DNA of 64,000 nucleotides from Spizellomyces punctatus DAOM BR117 (Eukaryota), in assembly GCA_000182565.2 (NCBI GenBank), contig KQ257467.1. The stretch is one strand, 5' to 3'. Under the pieces are notes generated by a model. That model was not told where the DNA came from, made no database searches, and saw nothing but the letters and a program-made list of their open reading frames with translations. Position 1 is the stretch's first letter. Each line of letters begins with the position of its first letter. The translations under genes and the position numbers were made by a program. Shown here one piece after another: positions 29,420-46,552 of this stretch.

Positions 29420-32400
29420 TCACACTGAATCCTTGAACCCAAACAAGGCTCTCAGATCATTCAACCTCCGCTGCTGCATCTCCTCCTTGTCCTTTGCACT
29501 CGTACCCTTGCGCCGTCCCTTCTTTCCAGCCTCAACAACACCTTCCTCCCCAATCGTCCGCTCTCGGAACGCGGTAGCCACCAGTTCCCGTTTCTTTCGT
29601 TTGAGCGCTTCAATGACTTCCTCAATCGTGCCTTCCACCACAAATCGAATCACGTGTACTTCACGGGTTTGTCCCATGCGGTGGACACGGTCTTGGGCTT
29701 GGTCTTCGACTGCGGGGTTCCAGTACGGTTCCAGAATGTACACACGAGAGGCTGATGTGAGATTGAGGCCTACTCCGCCTGCTTTGAGAGAGACGAGCAT
29801 GACGGTCACAGAGGGATCCGTCTTGAAGCTTTCCATCGCGTCTGTCCGGTCCTGCCGCGACATTTTCCCATCCAGTCGAACAAACCCAAATCCATACGTT
29901 CGCAGTGAGGGCTCCAAAAGGTCGAGCATGTTGGTCCATTGGGAAAATACAACGGCTTTGATAGGTGCTTCTCCCCTTTGAGTATACTCTGACCGTACTT
30001 GGATCAAATCACTCAACAGTGTGCGGACTTTGGTACTCATGCCTGGCGGAGAGCTCTCTCCAGGGGCATTGTGATGGGCTGCTGCAACAGCTGCTGCAAA
30101 GGCGTCATCGATCCCTTGTGCCTGTATAAGCTAGTCAGATATGGTTTACATGTTTTACAGAAAAAGAATACAAACTCACCGCGTCAATATCCTTGATTTC
30201 TTTCAAATCCGCTTTTCCTAATCGAGATTGGCACATGGGACACGCCATCCCTTCTTTTCCTTCCCCAAGAACGGCACGCACACATTCATTACAAAACCTA
30301 GCCAACCGGACATTAGACTCCATCTTGACAAGTAACCCTAGTCTGAACAACTTACATGTGCCCACACCGCGATACGACAACCGTCCTTTCACCACCACCG
30401 TCAACCGACAGGGAACACACACAGCACTTGTCATCACCCGCGTCTCGAAGGAGTGACAATAGATGCGCCGCCCTTTCGGATGTTAGGACAGGCATATCCT
30501 CGCCTTTTTCCATTTCTCCAATCGTCTCGCCTGGTCAAGCGACTAAGGCTTGAGCATTCCATTCAAAAGGTCACACAAATACAATTCAAGAACCTACCAA
30601 CGTCCCCTTGATCGCGGTACAAGGCTGGATGCGTCACAACTTGTCTCAGCCGCAGCAAAAGCTCCAAGAGTGTAGCGTAATGCTTAAACACCCGACCTGA
30701 ATCGTCCAATTCCTGAAAAACGTTACGCGCCCGCTCATAGACCCGGTCATAGAGTGCTTGTTCGGATGCGTCAAGGGTGAGTTTGAAGACGGAAATGTTC
30801 TTTGGTGGGAGAGACAAAATAGGTTTGCCATCAATCATTTGATGTTTGGTTCGACGAAGAGTGATGAGTTTCATGACCGTCTTGTAGACAGAGATGGATC
30901 ATGTGTGCGTGAGATAGTGCGGCATGTAGTACTCTACGATCGTGGCGGGACCTCACCTGTAACCGCGAGACAGCAACCTCGGATCGATTTTTCAGAGGCT
31001 TCATGATGAAATGACTAAAGTCCCTCCAATGGTTGAACGGCTCCAATCCCAAGAATCTCAACAAGCTAAACAAGTCTACACAAGAGATAGTATAAGGGTC
31101 TGCATCTAACCAGAGGACGGTTTGAGCATTACACGTACCGTCGATCTTATTATGAATCGGTGTTCCCCTGCAACACAATAAAAGCAAGGATATCAGCAAA
31201 TGGACGCCCGAGTACAATCATAGCATCAAGACACTCACGTCAGGCACCAACGTCTTTCAGCTCTCAGGGCACATGCAGCCTTCGCTTGATGCGTACTCCG
31301 TTCTTTGATCACATGAGCCTCATCCTGACAAAGGATTGTACAATGAGTAGAACGTCTCACTTGATCGAATGCATCCCTCCACGCACCAAGACAATACGTA
31401 ACCAATAAACAGACTGCAAGGGAGACTGCGGAGACTGGGGAGCAGACGAATCGACTTGCTTTGATCGAGCTTTCTGGTTCTATGTACAAATACATCGAAA
31501 TTTAACACTGCTGCGGCGCTAAAGTGCCAGGATAACTTTTGGTCAACAAACCTTTCCGTACTCCAGTGACAGCACATTATACGTAGTGAGAACCACGTCC
31601 TAATAGACACGAACCAAAGAATTAGCGCCAAATTCACGAATCCTCACCCATAATACGCAAGGAGATCATACATAATTGGCCAACACCGTAGGATCTTGGC
31701 ACCGATTTGGACCGTGATATACGTAGATTTTAACAGCACCTTCCTTCACATGGGATCCAAACTGCTCTTCCCAGTTCGCTACAGTACTCAAAGGGCAGAC
31801 GATCAATGTTGCACGAGATGGAATTTCTCCTCCTACGGGTGGTGGGGATGGGGGTGGGACTTGACGGCCAGGGAGGAATGGGTACGGGTCGGGTGTGCGC
31901 TGATTTCGATGTTGGAGTTGCTCGTAGCGAACAGGTTGAGATGGTTGATTTATAAGTATTAGGGAAATCAGTTCGATTGTTTTGCCGAGTCCCATGTCAT
32001 CTGTGTTTTTTTTTTAAAACGGACTCAGATACCGATGACCAACATTAACATGACGAAATTTCACTGCATACCTGCTAATATACCGCCCAATGCTTGAGCC
32101 GGCTCCACGTGCACAGCGTCACCCGTAACTGTATTCCGATATTTCCCGTTTTCATAGGCCCACAACGACCGTGATCGCTGAGACAAGTCCCGAAAGTCGA
32201 CACGGCGCTCACGCTCAAGCATAAAGTGAAGAGCTTGCTTCTGATGCTTGTATAACGGAGTCAATAATCGTTTATCGGGTTCAGCCTCGGGGAGATCCTC
32301 GGCTGCCGTAAGGGACATGTAAACGGCATCAATTTGACTTTTGACGTCGTCATTTGTGGCTTGCGCTACTCGTTCGGGTCGGTACAAGGCACAAGGGAGA

Positions 32401-34130
32401 CCCAGTGGGGGTCCCATTGCACTTGACGCAGCTCTCTGCGGATTGAAATATCGGACTTTGAGCTGACAGGTTTTGCTAACCTCTTCCAGCTGAATATTGA
32501 GTCGGGAGAGAATCGCGCCTATTGCTGCTGCAAGCTGGATGGGACCAATGACGAACAATTTGAGCGGTGCTGTGTATTTCTGGGATTGAGAGAAAAACAA
32601 CCATGTGAATTTTACGTGACTGCCTACATTTGTTTCCAATTACTTACGTTATGCTGATACCGCGGAATGTTTGCCTCCAATATCAAGCTTCGGTAAAACG
32701 GGGCAAGGGCCAAACTGACGTCCTCCTTTAGTTTCCCTAGCTATCATTCAATAGAGAGATAAGAAAACAATCTGGATAGAAACTAATTGAATCCTCGACG
32801 TACCCTCTGTCCATCCAGCGTGAGCACATGAAACGGCAGAGCATGTTTCGTATACGATCCAGTCGTCTCTGGAACAATTCGCACTCGTAGGCACTTTTCT
32901 GTTCCGCTGCACTGTCTGTATACGTCATAGTTGAGAGGCTGAACCAGGCTACTAATAATCCCATAGCACACCATCTCGGGACTCGACAGTGAGGATTTGG
33001 GTTCACTAGCAGCTCGTCGTTTCAGTTTGGCTTCCTCCGAGGCATCAATATCTGTTAAATCGACCACTTCGTAAGGGGCAGGTGATGTGTCATCTATTAC
33101 ATGGACTTCGGATTTCGGATGTTGGAGGGGAGAAGAGTGCTGGGAGTATTGGCGAGGTGGGGACATGATGGAAGATGTAAATGGCGTTGAAAGCGGCGGT
33201 GGGAGATGGGACGGACGTGGAGGTGGCAAGTAATAGGGATGCGTTGGATGTGAATATTTGCTGAATGGACCGCTGCTGACGGGTTGTGGTGTGTGGTACG
33301 GATTTCCTGGTCCGAAACAATTCATGGGTGGAGCAGAACGCCCAAATTCGCTCTGATAGTCGACGCGGCGCCGTGGAGAGTAGCAGTTGATAGATTCTGC
33401 CTTGCGCTTTTGTGGGAGTGGCGAATCTACAAGGAAAATATCATCAACTTGTTTCTCTATTAGAGTATTACTGAGCGGACATACCATCAACAAAGACTAC
33501 ATCAGATGAATTCCCATCAACTTCATCGCTGGGAAGATCAGTCAAATCGATCGTTTCTCGTTTGGTAGTTGCACGCCGCGGACTATTCTCTGCATTATAG
33601 GGACCCACCCCAGGGTCCAAAGGGCCCGGTCTCTGTGACTCTGACCAATCCCATAATCTCTTTAACGCATCCCCGCCAGGATCAATTGCAACTTCTCTCC
33701 CTCCTGTAGACTTTTCCGACCCATCAGTCCCTTCGCTCGCTTGTCTCGAATTCATCATCGATTGAGCAGAAGAAGTACTCCACTTGTCCCTTTCCCCTCC
33801 ATTCCAGTGTCCAAAAGAACCAGGTCGGTCGTCCATAAAAGTCGTCAACCGGCCGTCCGCAGACGGAGCCGAAGAACAAGCCCCATTGGATCTGTAGTCA
33901 TACGACCAGCTATTCGAATCAGGCCACCGGGTCGGGCTTGTACTACAAGTTCCGTTTCTATCATCTTCAAATGGGCCACGATAGTCGGAATAGCTACCGT
34001 TGGATAACCCGGGGTGAGGTTCAACTGGCTGGAGCCGCTCACCAAAGGTTGTGTTCCGGTCATCCGCCCAGTTATCGACGGGTGAAGAAGACTGCGTCTC
34101 TGTTTGTGCAATAGGCGGGTTTGTGCTCAT
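29420..34130 (-). CDS. SNF2-family helicase/E3 ligase of the Rad5/HLTF/Rad16 group (disordered N-terminus, probable HIRAN, RING, HELICc), many introns
   Basis: LYKHQKQAL, GGILA-DDMGLGKT, TLIVCPLS, DEAH, GTPIHN, RING (CAVC...CGH...CPMC), SLKAGGVGLNL and QAQDRVHRMGQ. Confidence 0.9.
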
Positions 34131-34932: not shown

Positions 34933-36352
34933 TTAGTTATATTGGTACAAGCCCAATGCATTTCTTGCTGATGACATAAAACGCTTGTCAAGGAAGATAA
35001 ATAGGAATGGGTTTACGGCCTAATACAGAGATGACGGTGAGTTTGACAAACGACACAACTTGAAATGCATAGAGGTGTGACACATACTGAGTTGGTGTAC
35101 GCCATGATGGCTCCCATTCCAGTAAGATTCGCCGGGGATGGCTTGCTGGTAAACGTTTCATAGGCCACCACTCCCAACACCCAAAATCCCCACGACACAG
35201 AAAAGAAAGCCACAAGAGTGACAAACTTGAAGACCACCGCTCGCTCCTCTTGCTGTTCTTGTTCCATCAACTGCCCTCTTTCCCTTCTTCTTCGTATTCT
35301 TTCTGATCGATCTGTTTGACTGCTACGCCCAACACCCATTTCGAGAACATCTGATACAGCGCTGTCCTCTTTTGATCGCTGTACGCCTAATTCGGCTGGA
35401 AATGTCGCGCTCCATTGAGAGGAAAGGGATGACCCAGTTGTTGCGGAGCCCAATGACCGGACGGTGAGCCGTGCAATGCGGGCACGCACTCGTCGGAATT
35501 TACGGTATATTGTGCCATAGCAAAGGGCCATCACCGTCAGGAAGAACACGTAGCAGGTGAGGGTAAAATAGGCGACACTTTTCATCAGGGGTGTTTGTAT
35601 GAACCATGGAGCGTCGCAGTATGTGTGGGTAGCTGCAATGATTGCGCCGCCGGCTGGGCGAGAGGCCAACATGAGCCATGTGGAGAATGCTATAAAAATA
35701 GACAGTGTCATGACAAAGAGCACATATCTCATCTGGCCAAAAACTCAGGTACGTACAGATTGCGACCGACCAAACCAAGACGATGATGTACATGATGACG
35801 GATGACGGGCTTGGCCTCCTAAAATGTTTGGCAAGAGCGTCAGTGACGCCGTTCGTGCAAGGCGAGCCACAGCGGATAAAGACACTAGATGACTTACTCA
35901 TGCACAATATGGAGCCATCGGTCGACCGAAATCCACATTAGGGTTTGCATAGATACCGCAATTCCCAAAGCAGCAAGGAACAAGACAATTTGACACCCAG
36001 CTGGTCCGGTTGCGAATCCGCCGGCGATACCATTCCACAATTCTGTAAATCCTGCTGACCCGCCCCACAAGAAATCCGCTACCGCGAGGTTCAGGATCTT
36101 TGCAAAAATGCAATGTCAGTACTCTCAATAATTGCTTTAACAAAACAACAAAGGTTATACCAAAAAGGTTCTCGCTTCTCTTAGCCCGCGGTCAGTGGCA
36201 AACAGATAGAAGATGAAGCTATTTCCGCATACATTCACGATGTTTACTGCGAGCGAAGTAAAGTTTATCGCTTTTTCACCGGGACTGTGGGGAATCCAAC
36301 TACCGTTTGAGAAATCTTCCAAAGGCGGCCCGCCTTGGGAGGAGATGACCAT
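34933..36352 (-). CDS. Rhodopsin-like (class A) G-protein-coupled receptor, no retinal-binding Lys
   Basis: Spliced product shows TM1 GN, TM2 NLAVADF, TM3 GCQ...SVDRW, TM4 W, ECL2 Cys (THTYC), TM6 FFSVSW, TM7 AYTNSAVNPFLF and helix 8 DKRF. Confidence 0.85.
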
Positions 36353-38067
36353 GGATGCAGATTGCTAGGATGAAAGAGAATTGAAGATAGAGAAAGGAAT
36401 GCCAGGTCCAGATATTTTATTTTCGTAGTAATCACAGTCCAAGCCGCCCAAGAGGTAAGACAGTAGGGACAGGGAGGCCAGGTTGCAACCAGAATTCGTG
36501 AAGGCAGGCTATCGGTGTAATCTGTTATTTCCTTCCTTCGGAAGCATTGGCGACCACAAGAATGGAGAAATGGTGCCAAATTGTTATGTGAGCCAAGAAA
36601 TAGTAGCAACGGTCAAATGGCGAATCCCTGATGGAATTGCGGATTGTACAAGGTATATAGGACAGCCAGGATTCACGGTTTGAGTGCAGAGACTGAAAAT
36701 ATCAGCCCACTGTGCACGACAGCATAATGATATTTCAAGTAGCAAACAAACAAAAAAAAAAAAAGGCTGGCCAACTGGACGATCATTAGACGAGAGCAGC
36801 TGGAAATCAGGGGGAATGATGTCGTACTAGCTCCACCGGGTGGGTGCGGACACTTTCCCTTGAAGGCATATGGCAGCTGGTGTGTGGGTAACAAGCTGCC
36901 CAAAGATTTTTTTGAAAGAAACTTTCCGGAACACAACCCGTCCAACCCAACAAAAGGCGAGTACGAAAAGGCAAGCCGAATCTGGTTAAGTACGCGAACA
37001 AACGTAACGCTGCCCCCAGATCACAGCTGAGCACCCATTTCAAAAAGCATATGTTGTCTCTTTTTTTGGCTTTGGACGATTTTCACACTTTTTGAGCAAC
37101 TTTCCTTTGTCTTGTGTGTTTTGAGCCCCAATTTTATTCGTTGTGACGACACAACAAAACGTTTGGAACAAAAGCAAAGCCATGAACATCCGAGGGTGTT
37201 TTATGCTTTGTCTAACGTGTTACGATTGCTTTTTTCCTGCTTTATTTCTGGCCACATCGTTCAAGGTTTCCGAACGATGCCCGTCCTTTTTTTTTTTCTT
37301 TCATTTGGACCTTGGCCGTTTTGCACCAAAAAACAGCCACTTTTGAAGAGGCAAAGTACCAAAATGCAAAAGAGCAATGGATGAGCTGATATTTTATTCC
37401 TTTGCACTCGTTTAACCCCAATGAACTACTCGCATATTGCGCTTACTTTGGTGTCCTTGGGGGAAATGTCACACTTTTGCAACCGTTTCAACTACAAGTG
37501 TGAAATGAGATGTCCGAAAGGTAACACGTGATTTGCAAGTTCGAATCTCTCTCAAGACAAAAAGTCGAGTGCGCAATCTCTTTTTTTGTTGCGATTGTTA
37601 ACGTTCATTGCTAGCTTTTGTGAATCAAGGCGTCAAGCATTCCCATCGATCGCGGGGATGCTCGTTGGTTTTATACCGTTCTTGTAACGAACGCGACCGC
37701 TGCATGTCCAATGACCTTGACATGTTGGAATGCCCGAGACGCCCGAGACTCGCTCGAATGAAACGGTCGTAAACCATCAAACCATTGCAAAAAAGACCAA
37801 ACACAATGCTTTCCAATTCCTATGCGCATTCAACACAACCAAAAAAAACACACATGCCCCTGAAGAAAACGACTAATCAGAATAGCATGTCATTTTCCAG
37901 ACAGATGACATCAGCATTACACGTGATTCCGGATCGGCACGCTCTCGCCTGACTTGACCCTTTGGTTTGAACTGCAATCCCTGGGGGAGGTCCGATGGGA
38001 CAGGAGAAGGATGAGCACGCTTCTCTTGAGCAATAACGACATTGAATGACGACTACCTGGCTTTCCA

Positions 38068-40168
38068 ATGGATGTAGTATTGTTGTTACTTGGATTCCTG
38101 CTCGAACGCGCCTGGGCTCTTCCGGTTCCCGTAGAGTCATCAGGCCAAATAGGCGCGCAAACGCTACCCGATGTTAGCACCAAACTCACCGTTCCTTGGG
38201 CGGATGCTGTTATTGGTGCTTCCTACTTTGCCATTCCGGTAGAACTGGCCTTCTTTGTCTTCAAGCTCCCATCAACGACTTTGTATCAAAAATGCGTAGG
38301 GGGACTCTTTGTTGCATTTATTCTATTTTGCGGAATCGGGCACTTTCTGGATGCCAGCCATATGGGCGTTGAATGGGTTATTGCCGATAGATATCTGACG
38401 GCAGGCGTCTCCGCCATTACAGCTATCGCAAGTCCGTATGTCTTGAATTACAGCGTGGAGGCCATCAAGGGATTCTCGGAAGAGTCGAAATTGGTGGAAA
38501 AGCAGCGGGATATGCTGGCAGACGCACAGGCGCTGACCCACCTTGGCAACTGGGAGCTAAGAGAGGACGAAAAAACTGGCGTCCGGTGGATTAATGCATC
38601 CGACGAGTTTTTCCGAATATTTGGCATGGAACCGGATACATATGAAGCCAACAGGATCACTTACGATAGATATTGGAAGTGTGTCGCGCCAGAGGATCGA
38701 GAAAAGATTGACAAGGCGGTTAGCGAAGCTTTGTTGAATGGAGACTCATACCACATCATACAGCGGATTCGAAGGGAGTCGGACAGGAAGGAGGTCTATA
38801 TTCGCGGATATGGAAAGCCTGTGATCCGCGACGGAAAGATTCAAGGGCTCCGTGGGTTCGTATCAAGTGTACAATGGTGTTCTTTGACAATATTCAGCTT
38901 CTAACGTTATGGCGATTGACTGCAGGACGGCGCAAGATATTACCTCCCAAGTCTTTGCTGAAATGGAATTGACTAGGGCAAAGGAAGAGGCGCTCATTGA
39001 ATCCAAGCACAAAGACGTGGTGAGTTTTTGGACTGTACTTTGTATTTGCTGTTGAGTTTTACTTTCTTATTCCGAGATGCCACGTGAATAGTTTCTAGCA
39101 ACCATGAGTCATGAATTGCGCACTCCTCTCACATCCATTATTGGACACGTCGAGCTAATGGACGAAACACCCATGGACGAGACCCAAAAAGAGTACATGT
39201 CCAACGCTAGACGGGCTGCAACCACGCTCTTATCCTTGATCAACGATATCCTTGATTACAGCAAGCTGACCGCTGGAAAGGTTGATTTAGATCTACGTGT
39301 AACCAGTGTAGCCGAGATTCTGGATGATGTTCGCGCCATTTCTAAAGATCTTGGAAAGGAGGTTACTCTACGAGTCGACTCGTACGATGGGCCCAACGTG
39401 ATTGGCGATTCCACTCGACTGAAGCAGATTTTGTTAAACCTTGTCAGCAATGCTGTAAAGTTTACAATGCCTGGTGGATACGTCTTTGTTACCAACACGT
39501 GGACAGTGGACAATGCCGACAGAGTGAACCTCACCATATCGGTCCGAGACACAGGCATTGGTATGTCGGAGCAAGTAATACAACGGCTGTTCAATCCGTT
39601 TACCCAAGCAGACGCATCAACGAGCCGCCGATTTGGTGGGACGGGATTGGGATTATCGATCGTCAAGAAGCTCGTAAATGCCATGGATGGGTCCATCGAA
39701 GTAACTAGCGAGGAAAATAAGGGATCAACTTTCACAGTCCTTTTTAAACTGCCTAAAGCGCACGTCCTTCCACAAGAGGTGCCTGTTCCCGACAAGATGG
39801 GCAGCATGCGTATCCTTGTCGCTGAAGACAACAAGGTTACCCAATCTCTTCTTAAGCGGATGCTGCGTGACTTTACCGTCGACGTGGCTGATAACGGCCG
39901 CCAAGCTGTGGACATGGTGAAAAAGAATGAATCCTATCACATGCTTTTCTGCGACTTGAATATGCCGGTACTGGACGGCCTGGAGGCCACCCGCGAAATT
40001 AGGAAGACGACCCAAGGCCGTGAAATATTCATTGTTGGCTTAACTGCGAATGCGTTCAAAACCGATCGCGAAAACTGTTTAAAAGCTGGGATGAATGACT
40101 ACCTCTCCAAACCGTTCACGAAGCTATCTCTACTGGCTATGATTGCGAAAGCAAAATTGTCCGGGTGA
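38068..40168 (+). CDS. Ethylene-receptor-like hybrid histidine kinase (signal peptide, ETR1-type 3-TM ethylene-binding domain, PAS, HisKA, HATPase, receiver)
   Basis: ADAVIGASYFAIPVEL, FILFCGIGHF, RYLTAGVSAITA; PAS (GNWE...PEDRE...GTAQDIT); MSHELRTPL, NLVSNAVKFT, DTGIGM, GGTGLGL; receiver AEDN...CDLNMP...KP. Introns 38856-38925 and 39020-39091. Confidence 0.9.
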
Positions 40169-40824
40169 CACAGCTTGATTTCCAGAGCACGTTGAGTGGC
40201 CAAATGAACCTGAAAGTTTCAAAAGGAGTGATACTGGATACTTGCCTCTCCCAATATTCCAATCGAGAACGACTGTCGTTGGCTGCATTTATTGTCGTCT
40301 ACATGGGTGATCGGACTCTTTATTTTGCCGGCGTCGTCCGACTGACACGGTCAAATGGAATCTTTCGCGACCCCGTTTTGCTGCGTCCTTGACTCGGTGC
40401 ACAATGCGGCGGTTAATGCATGTGCTGCAAGTCCCGGAAAACGCACCTGTATAAAAGAGATTTAGAAACTTGAGACTTGAGCCAACATATGCTCATAGAT
40501 ACGCCGGTTTTTACACTCTGCTACCGGGAACCAAGGTACACCCCTACTTATTACGCACGTTTTCTTTGGCGACACATGGTGTCACCTTTTACGGGTGAGA
40601 TTGAGATTGCTACCCGACAATACAGCGGTTGACTAGTCGGCAGCTGAAGAAAGAATCTCTGGAGGCAGAGAATATTGGACATGGTTGTAAACAGTTGTAG
40701 AGAATTGTATTGGACGTGCGCTCAAGATTAAGCCAGTCTTGAATTTTATGGAACGTTTAATATAAGCCAATGTTTTGTACACAAGTCATTAATACTGCCA
40801 AGTATATAATACACGAGTCGAACC

Positions 40825-43800
40825 TCATCTGTTTACAATTCTCCCAACAGCTTTCAAATCCCTTGTCAAATTACCTCCCAAAGTCTTTCCGTTGGCCCAT
40901 TCCCACACTCGTCGCAAACTTGAAACCTTGCCCCAGCTCAAATTCAATACAGCCATCGCAACGTCTTCTTGCATCTCCTGGTTCTCGTCATTCAGTGACA
41001 AAAGTTTCTCCAACTGATCCCTAAACCATTCAACCCCTGGCAAAGGCTGGAAATCTCCCATGGAACCTCTGGCTAATCCTGAGATGAGCGAGAGTGAAAA
41101 TGGTGCCTTGTCGGGGTCATTGAGCTGGGCCCACAACTGCTGAATCACGGCATAGCGTTTTTCCCAAGGCAATTGCTGCCCACATAGTTCAACAGATTTG
41201 ACAAAAGCAACGGAAAACCGCGCGTTCGATCCAATTGATGAGTCATTCAAGACTGTATTCATCTGTCTCGTCAGCAAGTCCTCTGGTGTTAATGTCCCCG
41301 CCTTCAATGTTCCCAATTCGCACTTGTCAAATACGCCCACCCCATCAGTGGTCAAAGCAGTAACGATCGCCTGAAACGAATCGAAAACCGGATCCGACCG
41401 GTCAGACGGCCGTAACGCTTCGGGCCACATTTTGCTCACGTTGTCCAACATAATGATACAATCACTCACAGCACCAACCTCTCGTAATAGGTCGTAACAC
41501 AATACGCGACACCGTTGCAGATCGTTTGTAAAACGACACCAAGTTGTGAAAGCTCGAATCATGCGACACGCGCGCCCCAAGCTGCGTTTGGTAGCCGACG
41601 TGGTGACGAGCGTGTGATGGATCCATGTCATTATTTTGTCCAAGAGTTTCTTGCTGGCATACCGCACGGCCCAACTGAAAACGCATAAGATGATGTGGCG
41701 TTCACGCACAGGCAGATATTCGGATGTTTGCAAGCTTCGCAACATGGGTGGTGCACTCGGTTTAGTGATACCCCCTACCCTTCCGATCAATAGAGCGTGC
41801 GACCGGAAATGTCCCCAACATTGGTCTAAAGCGCATTGAAGGGTGTAAGAGTCACTAGCGGCTCGACTTTGCGGGTTTTTGAAGAAATCCACGAGGGCTG
41901 CAGGTGAGTCCGTATCAATGCTCAAAAGCACGTCCTTGATGACTGCAGAACAAAAAGAGGCCCGTGTCAGCTGTGGAAATGGTAGTTACGGGCATAACAA
42001 GCAACAACATATCCCTGACTCACACGTGACATCATCAACAACTGGCGAACCTTGGCCACTGACCACAGGAGAACTCGGTTTTGTTTTCTGCGCTTTCTCC
42101 GCCGGTACAACTTTCCGGATCTTTCTACTCATGAGGTCGGCAAGGTCCTTTTGCCGACTGGGAAAGAGGCGGTCAGACGATTCCATGGGACAAGGCGGTT
42201 GCGGGGGAGAGATGACATTATCCGCGGGTTTGAATTGAAGATCACTTGTCTGCAGTTTGGTTGGAGGCTCCAGAGCGGCAGATTGCCTGCGAGCTTGCTT
42301 CGATATAGAGGAGGGCGGTACACTTGCTTTGATTGAATCGGTTGTACTACGTGAGGCCGTGGCTGCTGCATTAGAGGTCGTTTGTCCTGCGCTTGAAGTC
42401 TTTTTTCCACCCGAGTCCGCATGCAGTGAAGTTCGCTTACCCCCGGATGCAGTACGTGACACAGGTTGACGTTGGGTACTATTTGATCTCGGTGGCAGTG
42501 AGGATCCTACAGGTTCTGATGCTCCCGAAGATGTAGAGCTGCCTGTTGACATAGTGCGTGACCTTCGCTTGACCTTTTCTACAGAGGGAGCCGCTTTTGA
42601 CTTAGCCGCCATGCTAGGTGCTTTGGCTCCTCCTGTATCTCTTTCCTTTGCAGCCAAAGCACTGGAGCGACTGGGAGGCAATGGCTTTGTTTTGTACCTG
42701 TCGGATGATGTTGTGCTAATGGAGTCGATGCTAGGGGCGCGAGAACGGCTCGCAGTGGTGATGGGCGACGCTCCAAGGTCAAGGGAGGTAGCAAGTTCGT
42801 CTTCCGTAGGAGTAGGGGAACACCTCGGAGTGGGTACTATTTCTGACAACGTCTGCACAGAATTTTGGGTTGCCCTTCGCTTGGAAGGTCGATCTTTGTA
42901 ATCCTCCTCCAGGTCAGACTGCAACTGGAAGTGAAACAATGATTAATGTGATTCTTTATATTAGCGTTTCTCAAGCAGCCTACCTCATCGTTGTCGACTT
43001 TTGTGAGTTTTCTTTTCAAGCAACTTAGGCGCACCTGCTGCTCAGTCACCAACTCTTGCAACGCCATCTGTGTAAAGACTTCATGATTAGAAGGTGGCCC
43101 CCGGTCGGACCAGGTGGCACTGAACATACCTTCTGCTTCGAAAGTGATGCGTTTTCACCTCTCAAACGATCGATCTGTCGTACAAGGCGAGAGACCCCGT
43201 CTTCTGACTGATCAGGTGCCATATGTTTTTCAATTCCCTTTTGCACAGTAGGCTCTTTGGCCTGTGCGCTTGCATTGCTGAGCTGTGCCCGCAACTGCCG
43301 TACTTCATCCTTGTGCCTGGCCCTTTCATCAGCGAGTCGACTGTTGCAAGTACGAAGTGTCTCCTCCTTGTCTTGAAGTTGCGCCTCAAACTCTTTCAGG
43401 CGATCCCTCATCCGTCGCATTTCATTGTCATAACGCTGTTGGACCGTCGCAGCATCCTCATTTACATCGTTGCGTTGGTCGCTTTTCCTGTACCGGGGTA
43501 CCTCAGTCTTTCCAGACGTTTCAGCAGCCGTTACTCGTTGTCGCATATTTTGGATCTCCGCATCTTTTGCTTTCATCCTCGCCTCCATCTCTGAATGCAT
43601 GTCCTTGAGCTTGTGGATCTCTTCATCTTTCTTTCTTAATTGAGAAATTTCAAGCAGTTGATCTTTGCACCGGGTCTCAATCTCCAGCTTCCCCTTTTCA
43701 AGTACTTTAGCTTGATTCTCTAAGGACATTTTCCCCTCTTCTAATATTGTACACCGCTCTTCTGCACTTTTAGCCAGTTTCACGGCCTCCACAGCTTGTA

Positions 43801-44762: not shown

Positions 44763-46552
44763 ATGTCTAGCGACGTGCGGGATATCCTGCAGCTCCCGGC
44801 CGACGCTGGGAAAACAACCTCATCGATACGCAACGCCGTTAAAGCGGAGAGAGTCAAGGAGAAGAAGAGCGGTATGGGGTGTGCAAAGCGCAGGTTTAAG
44901 TCAACCGGTCATTGACACCTTTTTTGAACAGATGGTCTAAATCGCGAGCTACTCTCATTGACGGGCGGTGCACCACCAATGGTACTTGCCAAAAAGAAGT
45001 ACAAGGCTAGACCGAATTTTAGTAAGAGAACAGCTGTTTCGCCATGGTAAGTTGTGACCGTATGTGCTCCGTCATTGTCTCTTTCCTAAACGAAGCGCAT
45101 ATAAAGGGTTTGGCGTTCCTTTACCAACCCAGCTCGAAGAGATAACTTGGAACTGTATCATTGGGTAAAAGCCACCGATGCAGAAGGTTGGTTTTGTTTT
45201 GGTCTGGATGCGGAAGAATCAACTCCGACCAACTCCTCAATGCATTCAGATTATTACTTTGCAAAGTTCAACGAAATTGTTGATATGGTCGATTACACCG
45301 AGGAAGAATATAACGCCCATCTGAAGGGTAAGGGCAGCTATGCGCTACATGAGTTGCAGCTTATGCTGAACGTAGCATCTTCGGGTACTTTAGATAAAGC
45401 AGCGTCATCTGGCTGGACCAGAGAAGAAACGGACTATCTGTTTTCTCTGTGTAAAGCATTCGATCTACGTTGGTTTGTTATCTTCGACCGGTACGATTGG
45501 CCGAATCACACGCGAACAATAGATGTATGGTGCAATTATGCGTCCATCTTGATGACTTTTAGAGTGTGTGAAGTGACTTCCATGTTGTATCAATGTATAG
45601 GATCTGAAGGAGCGCTACTATCAAACCGCGCGAGCCATCCTTCTAGCACGCGGTAAGCCGGACAAAAAGGATCTAACAGGCTACAATTTCGATAAAGCCC
45701 GCGAAATCGAACGCAAAAAGAATCTGGAAATTCTCTATAACCGAACTGCAGAACAAATTAAAGAGGAAGAGTATCTCTTTATGGAGCTCCGTCGTCGTGA
45801 GCAAAAGGAAGAGCGAATGCAACGTGAACGCGAAGCTGTCTGGCAGTTGCTCAACGATAATGAAGTGCGCTTGGCGAATAGAGAAGGGCTGACGCCAATC
45901 GATAAAAACGTAGAGAAGCTGAAGAAACGGAAATCCGTGGGCTCAACCAAGAGGGCGTCCTCTGAAGATGTGAGCAGCCCCGTAATGGAAGTAGGACCTA
46001 GCAACTCTGCAAGAAAAAGGAGCAAGGTCAAAGAAGAACCAGCGGCTGAGGAGGGTATGGTAGCCAGCCGCCTACTGACTGTGATGGCTCATTATCGGAG
46101 GGCTGACCGGGGCTTTATGTTCTAGATTCTGCCCACAAAATCAAATATCCAGTGGGAGCCTTCGCGCGTTCTTCAAAACTTCCAGCACCGAAAACAGCCC
46201 TTGTGCCCCGAGTCCACCAATTCCTGCAGGAACTTGGGCTGGGGATAAAGCCGAATATGCCTACCGCTCCAGTGTGTGCAAAATTTAACGAGCTGCAAAT
46301 GAACATCCAGACTTTACTGGAGGTGAAAAAGCTGTACGACAAAGTCGATTTGGAGCTGAGTAAGATGCGGGTGAAGGCCCGTGTGATGGGCGGGGGACAA
46401 GCAGGTGGATCTTCTGCAGTGGTAAGTTATTAATCGTCTCTGTCGGTAAAACTCTTGAAGGATAATGACCAAGTTGTTAGCCGCAGAAGCGGTCGTCCTT
46501 GACGCCTTCCTCTGCGCAAAAAGACCTAAAGCGGCAACGCACCGGAGCCTGA
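44763..46552 (+). CDS. SWC4: SWR1/NuA4 subunit Swc4/Eaf2 (DMAP1)
   Basis: MSSDVRDIL, GLNRELLSL, FTNPARRDNLELYHW, YYFAKFN, SANT WTREETDYLF...FDLRWFVIFDRY, DLKERYY. Confidence 0.93.

What the first reader, a model, noticed from the sequence alone, without database searches (positions are those of the whole stretch)
38068..40168. Fungal ethylene-receptor homolog with an intact copper/ethylene-binding site and PAS instead of GAF
Helix 1 D...Y..IP and helix 2 C-x3-H correspond to Arabidopsis ETR1 D25, Y32, I35, P36, C65 and H69, the residues needed for Cu(I)/ethylene binding; helix 3 LTA.VS..TA is also conserved. Kinase H, N, G1, F and G2 boxes and the receiver Asp are intact. ETR-like kinases in early-diverging fungi have been reported from genomes, but I know of no functional characterisation. 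It implies possible sensing of a plant hormone or other soil gas.
Basis: partly seen in the sequence, partly recalled or inferred. Interest (0 to 1): 0.75.

Follow-up and report, generated by a model that had tools for sequence, protein, structure and literature searches.

The report
Known chytrid ethylene-receptor-like sensor kinase
This soil-fungus gene is a real ethylene-receptor-like sensor kinase that was already named in a 2017 paper; it probably binds the gas through copper, but it seems never to have been tested, and some environmental relatives may sit in giant-virus DNA.

Summary
The three-exon gene encodes 652 aa, identical to Spizellomyces punctatus SPPG_07928. It has an ETR1_N domain, PAS, HisKA, HATPase and receiver, and no GAF. 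D46, Y53, I56, P57, I85, C88 and H92 match the AtETR1 binding residues. ETR1 K91 is R108 here and T68 is G91; similar ETR1 mutants (K91R, T68A) still bind ethylene.

It is not new. Hérivaux 2017 names this gene as an ethylene-receptor homolog. I found no test of this protein.

Added here: it belongs to a tight clade (16 clusters) whose named members are Spizellomycetales and Rhizophlyctis chytrids. Its binding domain shares E38 with plant and some other fungal receptors, not with the bacterial ones sampled. Two intronless environmental copies lie in giant-virus-like DNA (suggestive only). Most likely mechanism: a Cu(I)-ethylene sensor that feeds an Hpt phosphorelay (0.62). The scan's earlier notes held nothing on this.

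The parts
38068..38855 (+). Exon 1 (residues 1-263): leader, ethylene-binding domain, helical linker, most of PAS
   Evidence: spliced product identical to SPPG_07928
38068..38118 (+). Hydrophobic N-terminal leader (residues 1-17), probably a signal peptide; like the extra hydrophobic stretch of plant subfamily 2 receptors
   Evidence: hydropathy; 11-residue KD maximum 1.6-3.6 in 18 of 20 clade leaders, the other two start late; cleavage not tested
38194..38265 (+). EBD helix 1 (43-66): D46 (38203), Y53 (38224), I56 (38233), P57 (38236), E59 (38242) = ETR1 D25, Y32, I35, P36, E38
38281..38355 (+). EBD helix 2 (72-96): I85, C88 (38329), G91, H92 (38341) = ETR1 I62, C65, T68, H69; predicted Cu(I) site
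   Evidence: I..CG.GH in 20 of 20 clade sequences
38368..38442 (+). EBD helix 3 (from 101): D107-R108 (R108 at 38389 = ETR1 K91), T111, S115, T118; runs on as one helix into the linker
38590..38929 (+). PAS domain (Pfam PAS_3, residues 175-264; split by intron 1)
38856..38925 (+). Intron 1 (70 nt, GT..AG)
   Evidence: model agrees with the NCBI protein and 16 of 16 homologues; no junction read
38926..39019 (+). Exon 2 (residues 264-294): end of PAS and helix leading to the H-box
39020..39091 (+). Intron 2 (72 nt, GT..AG)
   Evidence: 15 of 16 homologues read through
39092..40168 (+). Exon 3 (residues 295-652 and stop): HisKA, HATPase_c, receiver
39110..39112 (+). Phospho-acceptor His301 (HisKA 293-356)
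39404..39754 (+). HATPase_c (399-515) with N414, G1 D447, F461, G2 G477
39812..40144 (+). Receiver (535-645) with D540, phospho-acceptor D582 (39953), T612, K634
40784..40788 (+). Poly(A) ends of a + strand RNA; possibly this gene's 3' end (about 620 nt past the stop), not linked to it by any read
   Evidence: A tails in 3 and 4 reads; the genomic sequence there is not A-rich

Best explanation
SPPG_07928 is a membrane-bound hybrid histidine kinase of the ETR1 ethylene-receptor family. Shown here: the domain order (leader, three-helix EBD, helical linker, PAS, HisKA, HATPase, receiver), the full residue set for the Cu(I) site, and intact catalytic motifs. Inferred from ETR1, SynEtr1 and AzoEtr1: C88 and H92 hold Cu(I), D46 polarises H92, and ethylene binds the copper. 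A D46-R108 polar bridge (the ETR1 D25-K91 pair) then moves helix 3. Helix 3 runs as one helix into PAS and the kinase, changing His301 autophosphorylation. The phosphate passes to D582 and then to the genome's Hpt protein and its response regulators. PAS is probably a signal-relay module rather than a second sensor. My odds: family member 0.98; binds Cu about 0.85; binds ethylene when expressed in yeast about 0.75; ethylene is the physiological signal about 0.5. The sign (kinase on or off with ethylene) is unknown.
For: Pfam ETR1_N over cut-off. All seven ETR1 binding positions are matched (the list of seven is recalled, the papers read say only 'seven'). D.{6}Y..IP and I..CG.GH are kept in 20 of 20 clade sequences while full-length identity among five of them is only 53-57%, so the site is under selection. 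ETR1 K91R kept 63% of binding and T68A still bound ethylene (PMC10266040 passages). R stands at the K91 place in 175 of 347 non-clade EBDs. AzoEtr1, with the same seven residues, binds ethylene in Pichia (PMC11819568). Three-helix model at pLDDT 93. All nine kinase and receiver motif patterns are present in 17 of 20 clade sequences. One Hpt match in the genome. PAS carries long variable insertions across the clade. Low sense-strand RNA over 37400-38539.
Against: No binding, Cu or kinase assay of this protein was found. The domain is diverged: with a clade-only profile the next EBDs score 50 bits or less, against 108-160 within the clade. Loop spacings are 42/19 against 40/22 in most bacteria and 40/25 in AtETR1 (by eye). 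Helix 3 is only weakly hydrophobic (KD19 at most 1.16) and carries D107-R108. K91R made ETR1 hyposensitive in plants. No N-terminal disulfide cysteines. RNA depth over 38540-40363 was 0.51 or less on the sense strand, with no junction read, in about 6% of one run. No ethylene response of a chytrid showed up in the 15 of 42 papers listed (listing only).
Confidence: 0.62

Rival explanations
1. It is a Cu(I) gas or redox sensor whose natural ligand is not ethylene (for example CO, another alkene or alkyne, or oxygen state), or ethylene serves only as a proxy for waterlogged, low-oxygen soil rather than for plants.
For: Clade-specific changes around the site: G91 in 20 of 20, Asp before R108 in 18 of 20 by script, altered loops. 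EBDs occur in thousands of microbial clusters (8,243 representatives at E 0.001) and even in Maribacter phages, so a plant link is not implied. Soil ethylene has microbial and abiotic sources (PMC11819568 passage). That ETR1 also binds CO and acetylene is recalled.
Against: The EBDs with the seven residues whose assays I read about (AtETR1, SynEtr1, AzoEtr1) bind ethylene. No second-ligand motif was seen.
Confidence: 0.25
2. The EBD is now only a membrane anchor. The kinase is controlled through PAS by a cytoplasmic signal.
For: The EBD sits on a long branch (1.58 changes per column). Helix 3 is polar. PAS domains often sense ligands (general knowledge).
Against: D46, Y53, I56, P57, I85, C88 and H92 are invariant in 20 of 20 clade sequences, whereas PAS is the variable part (insertions; PAS_3 missed in 1 of 17).
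Confidence: 0.08
3. Annotation artefact or silent gene: the frame is real but not expressed or not spliced as modelled.
For: No junction-spanning read and almost no coverage of exons 2-3 in the one RNA run laid as raw reads.
Against: The frame is intact over 652 codons. A 94%-identical orthologue exists in Spizellomyces sp. 'palustris'. Homologues read through both junctions. Sense reads cover the 5' part and poly(A) ends lie downstream.
Confidence: 0.05

Closest known systems
SPPG_07928 itself, in Hérivaux et al. 2017 (PMC5285503; text parts 1-3 of 4 and Text S1 parts 4-5 read, figures not seen)
   Same: Same protein. Listed among early-diverging-fungus ethylene-receptor homologs with three helices and all crucial residues.
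   Different: Nothing in identity. The text read does not mention the PAS domain of this protein, R108, or a separate chytrid clade. Fig. 3A, which draws the domains, could not be seen and may show PAS.
Arabidopsis ETR1 and subfamily 2 receptors (ETR2, EIN4, ERS2)
   Same: D25, Y32, I35, P36, E38, I62, C65, H69, T94, S98, T101 equivalents (by eye; aligned to plant receptor P0377). Hybrid kinase with receiver. Hydrophobic leader as in subfamily 2.
   Different: PAS, not GAF. K91 is R and T68 is G. No Cys4/Cys6 pair. Shorter helix 2-3 loop. Full kinase motifs despite the subfamily-2-like leader. Output is presumably Hpt, not CTR1/EIN2 (plant pathway recalled; not searched here).
Other fungal ETR homologs (Rhizophagus RiHHK6, Rozella RaHHK2, Allomyces, Basidiobolus, Entomophthoromycotina)
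   Same: EBD on a histidine kinase. The AIP-x-E motif of helix 1 is shared with Rozella and Basidiobolus (by eye). Binding is reported for Rhizophagus (second hand).
   Different: The Rozella, Basidiobolus and Allomyces sequences seen keep K at position 91. Entomophthoromycotina receptors all have one GAF and no receiver (bioRxiv 2023.12.22.573025 passages). None of them came up in my clade-profile search.
Bacterial EBD kinases (Synechocystis SynEtr1, Geitlerinema GeiEtr2, Azospirillum AzoEtr1, Bacteroidota EBD-PAS kinases)
   Same: EBD followed by PAS is common (Pfam columns; PMC6682694 passage). Arg at the K91 place is common.
   Different: E38 is present in 18 of 20 clade sequences but in only 1 of 347 others, and that one is the plant receptor. 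Loop spacing differs. The window gene has introns.

Membership tests
ETR1-type ethylene-binding domain proteins | Pfam ETR1_N (PF25487) above gathering cut-off | tested here: met
   50.9 bits against 27; 17 of 17 clade proteins scanned pass
ETR1-type ethylene-binding domain proteins | Three N-terminal membrane helices | tested here: met
   AlphaFold2 helices 43-66, 72-96, 101 onward, pLDDT 93. Hydropathy is clear for helices 1-2 (KD19 1.9, 2.2) and weak for helix 3 (1.16); no topology predictor was available
ETR1-type ethylene-binding domain proteins | Seven binding residues D25, Y32, I35, P36, I62, C65, H69 (list recalled; D25, C65, H69 confirmed in PMC10266040) | tested here: met
   D46, Y53, I56, P57, I85, C88, H92
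ETR1-type ethylene-binding domain proteins | Basic residue at K91 that pairs with D25 | tested here: met
   R108; R in 19 of 20 clade sequences by script, the 20th by eye; K91R keeps 63% binding
ETR1-type ethylene-binding domain proteins | Cu(I)-dependent saturable ethylene binding | not testable with these tools
   needs an assay; none found in print
Fungal hybrid histidine kinases | HisKA + HATPase_c + receiver in one chain with H, N, G1, F, G2 boxes and phospho-Asp | tested here: met
Fungal hybrid histidine kinases | An Hpt partner encoded in the genome | tested here: met
   one PF01627 match over cut-off, G000:C6; phosphotransfer itself not tested
Plant ethylene receptors (subfamily 1 or 2) | GAF domain between EBD and kinase | tested here: not met
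   GAF in 0 of 17 clade proteins, PAS_3 in 16 of 17; plant control P0377 has GAF
Plant ethylene receptors (subfamily 1 or 2) | N-terminal cysteines for a disulfide-linked dimer | tested here: not met
   no Cys in residues 1-75
Single clade with GAF-type fungal and plant receptors | Monophyly of the EBD and kinase with them | tested here: inconclusive
   quick EBD tree leaves the sister group open; the kinase tree held no other fungal ETR and no plant kinase; E38 points to a shared eukaryotic EBD
Giant-virus (Nucleocytoviricota) gene, for the window copy | Intronless gene in gene-dense DNA with viral hallmark genes | tested here: not met
   two introns; fungal neighbours (helicase, 7TM receptor, DMAP1); ORF density 0.52-0.64; no NCLDV capsid match in the genome, but that search had no positive control
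Giant-virus (Nucleocytoviricota) gene, for environmental copies L003 and L004 | Same | tested here: inconclusive
   intronless and gene-dense, with a virus-type neighbour motif; no hallmark gene on either short contig; no clade member in IMG/VR

The most novel reading that the evidence does not exclude
SPPG_07928 is one member of a distinct EBD-PAS-kinase-receiver family that moves between soil chytrids and giant viruses (or their integrated forms). Intronless copies lie in giant-virus-like DNA: L004 next to an ORF with a C-terminal motif that, in IMG/VR, only giant-virus contigs carry, and L003 among dense, intronless RING, BTB, AlkB, DnaJ-like and TnpB/Fanzor-like genes. Such viruses would carry an intact copper-ethylene receptor that can plug into the host's Hpt relay, letting the virus read a plant or soil gas. 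A search for 'giant virus' with 'ethylene receptor' found 0 papers.
Probability: 0.33. Interest if true: 0.7.

Novelty: already known. Interest (0 to 1): 0.36.

Why it matters
As flagged, little is new: the gene was named in 2017. What remains useful is that it is the only EBD match in the genome of a chytrid that can be transformed (PMC7213984, PMC10267658; listing only). That makes 'do chytrids sense ethylene?' directly testable with one gene. It is also a natural test of the ETR1 D25-K91 relay model, since the whole clade has Arg there, and of EBD signalling without GAF or disulfides. If the giant-virus lead holds, it would be a gas-hormone receptor carried by a virus, and a route by which such receptors spread among eukaryotes. 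PMC7700396 raises viral transfer of these receptors only as a possibility (passage).

Tried and rejected
Splice model B (38852-38897, 660 aa) scored slightly better on consensus but was rejected: it breaks the GLRGTAQD motif that 16 of 16 homologues have, and it does not match the NCBI protein.

No solved EBD structure was found by sequence or by fold (no match at E 0.001), so the Cu-site geometry could not be compared with an experimental structure. The full-length model from a 5-sequence alignment was poor in the EBD (pLDDT under 50); its fold search gave only generic kinases.

The homodimer prediction for residues 31-163 gave no verdict (score 0.31, mark 0.32). It is not used for or against binding.

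The ESM Atlas gave only generic PAS clusters and nothing usable for an L003 neighbour.

Three L003 neighbours (BTB, AlkB-like, TnpB-like) had no close relative in viral contigs. Their cluster look-ups gave no names. The TnpB-like protein had no PDB hit and only 23-26% identical matches in S. punctatus.

Three scans for clade members in viral contigs found none: one search gave only a phage EBD, nothing, and three stretches that tblastn rejected. The genome-contig scan picked kinase motifs and returned 48 prokaryotic loci, none matching the EBD part of the query.

The careful EBD tree did not finish; only the quick tree is cited (76 of 367 EBDs after thinning). The kinase tree (50 of 237 rows) has long-branch warnings, and its bacterial rows were chosen by likeness to the clade, so I draw no donor from it.

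The Mycodnaviridae paper has no mention of histidine kinase or ethylene in its main text or in the 4 of 10 supplementary files that could be searched.

Run X1 (root metagenome) held one 239-nt contig matching 39712-39950; too little to use. X2 and X3 contigs run through the introns, so they are probably DNA. The P-type ATPase search could not single out a RAN1-like copper pump. The scan's earlier notes held only unrelated bacterial kinases.

Full report
What is there. The interval holds a three-exon gene on the + strand: 38068-38855, 38926-39019 and 39092-40168. The spliced product is 652 aa and identical to NCBI SPPG_07928 of Spizellomyces punctatus DAOM BR117, a soil chytrid. Of 164 two-intron models that keep the frame, the chosen one matches the database protein, and homologues read through junction 1 in 16 of 16 and junction 2 in 15 of 16 cases. 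Pfam gives ETR1_N at 45-122 (50.9 bits, cut-off 27), PAS_3 at 175-264, HisKA, HATPase_c and receiver, and no GAF. It is the only ETR1_N match in the 24-Mb genome. Its neighbours are ordinary fungal genes: a helicase, a 7TM receptor and DMAP1 (4 of 9 frames had a hit).

The binding site. I counted AtETR1 positions by eye on the sequence in Text S1 of PMC5285503 and aligned a fetched plant receptor, P0377. D46, Y53, I56, P57, I85, C88 and H92 correspond to D25, Y32, I35, P36, I62, C65 and H69. The list of seven is recalled; the passages read confirm 'seven' and name D25, C65 and H69. AlphaFold2 on residues 31-163 with 104 sequences gives three helices at pLDDT 93, and the third runs on into the linker. 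No experimental EBD structure was found to compare with. Two positions differ. ETR1 K91, which is proposed to bridge to D25, is R108; T68 is G91. In PMC10266040 (passages) K91R kept 63% of binding but made plants hyposensitive, and T68A still bound. Arg at that place is common: 175 of 347 non-clade EBDs (these were gathered by profile similarity, so they are not a random sample). Against a simple transfer of function: helix 3 is weakly hydrophobic and carries D107-R108, the loops differ (42/19 against 40/22 in most bacteria), and there is no N-terminal cysteine pair.

What is in print. PMC5285503 (text parts 1-3 of 4 read; figures not seen) names SPPG_07928 among fungal ethylene-receptor homologs with all crucial residues and prints the sequence. 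PMC6324907 (passages) extends such homologs to Capsaspora, amoebae and diatoms. PMC11819568 (passages) shows binding for AzoEtr1 and states that saturable binding to a specific receptor was obtained for Rhizophagus irregularis, citing Mongès 2023, which I could not read. PMC9603746 (abstract and one section) reports binding by two non-canonical Agaricus kinases. Searches for 'Spizellomyces punctatus' with 'ethylene' (11 papers) and for ethylene, zoospore and chytrid (15 of 42 listed) showed no test of this protein. Most subscription journals are outside the library.

The clade. A profile of eight close EBDs gives 15 proteins at 108-160 bits and then nothing above 50 bits, among 107 hits. With cluster members and one more, the group is 20 sequences in 16 clusters. 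Five carry names, all chytrids: S. punctatus, Spizellomyces sp. 'palustris', Fimicolochytrium jonesii, Thoreauomyces humboldtii (Spizellomycetales) and Rhizophlyctis rosea (Rhizophlyctidales). Of 17 scanned, 17 have ETR1_N, 16 have PAS_3 and none has GAF. A careful full-length tree of 16 rows splits Rhizophlyctis plus four unnamed rows from the Spizellomycetales plus seven unnamed rows (100/100, midpoint root). That fits descent from the common ancestor of the two orders, though Thoreauomyces does not pair with Fimicolochytrium. E38 is kept in 18 of 20 clade sequences and in 1 of 347 others, the plant receptor. By eye, Rozella and Basidiobolus receptors also have it and three Allomyces ones do not. 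So the EBD looks eukaryotic in type. The kinase core scores higher on bacterial hybrid kinases (up to 226 bits among named loci) than on the three S. punctatus paralogues whose core lies in one exon (118-127 bits). In a quick tree it falls among bacterial rows. Those rows were chosen by likeness, and no other fungal ETR was in the tree. A swap of the back end (GAF-kinase for PAS-kinase) is my preferred reading, but it is not shown.

The virus lead. Two environmental copies could be read in context (2 of the 5 loci). L003 (13.6-kb contig) has the gene without introns among ORFs covering 84% of the DNA, against 52-64% in five slices of the window and 12-37% in shuffles. Ten of 11 starts lack a Shine-Dalgarno-like word. 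The neighbours include AlkB-like, RING, BTB_2, DnaJ-like and Cas12f/TnpB-like proteins. L004 (2.2 kb) has the gene about 120 nt behind an ORF that ends in a short motif. A DNA pattern for that motif matched 11 places in 6 of 2.9 million viral contigs: five of 347-380 kb and one GVMAG. In 11 of 11 the motif lies 4-13 residues before the stop, as in L004 (7). A profile of those stretches found further copies in the same viral loci and in L004 (E 4.6e-5), and none in the window or in the bacterial and S. punctatus loci held (12,308 ORFs). Genes around them include UDG, D123/R2K, MORN, F-box and an origin-binding protein, a mix I recall as typical of giant viruses. Against: the pattern came from L004 itself; I did not test eukaryotic genomes other than S. 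punctatus for it; neither contig holds a hallmark gene; three scans found no clade member in IMG/VR; prokaryotic gene callers recover only intronless copies, which biases the sample; and chytrid genomes hold integrated giant-virus DNA (PMC13533422 passages). The window copy itself is a normal intron-bearing fungal gene.

Expression. One raw RNA run with the same species label (about 6% read, 536 reads laid) shows sense-strand depth of 0.7-3.8 over 37400-38539 and 0.51 or less over 38540-40363, with no junction read. Non-templated A tails mark a + strand RNA end at 40784-40788. The strand convention is inferred from the convergent neighbour gene. This suggests low expression and a long 3' UTR, but does not show it.

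How it most likely works. Cu(I) is held by C88 and H92, with D46 polarising H92. Ethylene binds the copper. The D46-R108 bridge shifts helix 3, which is continuous with the linker into PAS and the kinase. His301 phosphorylation changes, and phosphate flows to D582 and to the one Hpt found in the genome. The parts are shown; every step of the chemistry is inferred from ETR1, SynEtr1 and AzoEtr1. Confidence 0.62. The main rival is a copper sensor for another gas or for soil oxygen state (0.25).

Verdict. Interest is 0.36: a named but apparently untested receptor in a transformable chytrid, with a newly outlined chytrid clade and an unproven giant-virus link (probability 0.33, interest 0.7 if true).

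Noticed in passing
L002:7890-8759 (IMG/VR phage contig; P0113, Maribacter phage Molly_4 gene 65, and P0284, P0285): A 289-aa phage protein with an ETR1_N domain (60.9 bits) lies directly before an amidase endolysin gene and after a 151-aa ORF with no Pfam hit. It keeps C-x3-H but has Asn for D25 and Ser for P36. UniRef already labels it as an ETR1-like domain protein. A copper or gas-sensing domain in a lysis region is odd.
   Followed up: partly
L004:234-692; L076-L086: A short C-terminal motif (Y.PGG..YE.AK..F) after a helical stretch ends many small ORFs of giant-virus-like contigs. The L004 ORF has no Pfam family at E 1.
   Followed up: partly
L003:8732-10771 (-): A 679-aa TnpB/Fanzor-like nuclease (Pfam Cas12f1-like_TNB) lies 3.5 kb from the receptor copy. 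S. punctatus has four matches at 23-26% identity, one with two internal TGA stops.
   Followed up: partly
window 40364-40800: The 3' ends of a strongly expressed - strand gene (frame 40825-41985, no Pfam hit) overlap poly(A) ends of a + strand RNA at 40784-40788: convergent, overlapping 3' UTRs.
   Followed up: partly
window 37400-38067: Low sense-strand RNA coverage extends at least 670 nt upstream of the ATG, which suggests a long 5' leader or an upstream transcript.
   Followed up: no
window 35013-36612 (-): A rhodopsin-family 7TM receptor gene (Pfam 7tm_1, E 1.9e-7) lies divergently upstream of the kinase. No evidence of a functional link.
   Followed up: no
window 29420-33496 (-) and 45105-46433 (+): An SNF2/RAD5-like helicase with a RING region (Helicase_C hit; the RAD5 label is recalled) and a DMAP1/Swc4 gene: ordinary fungal neighbours.
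   Followed up: no
G000 whole genome: 45 receiver-domain matches (exon by exon, not gene counts) against one Hpt match: many kinases share one phosphotransfer protein.
   Followed up: no
L005, L006, L007 and many proteins: Bacteroidota (Dyadobacter, Mucilaginibacter) have a large family of EBD kinases with Arg at the K91 place and a conserved PPRW..G.W segment before helix 1; none was assayed in the papers read.
   Followed up: no
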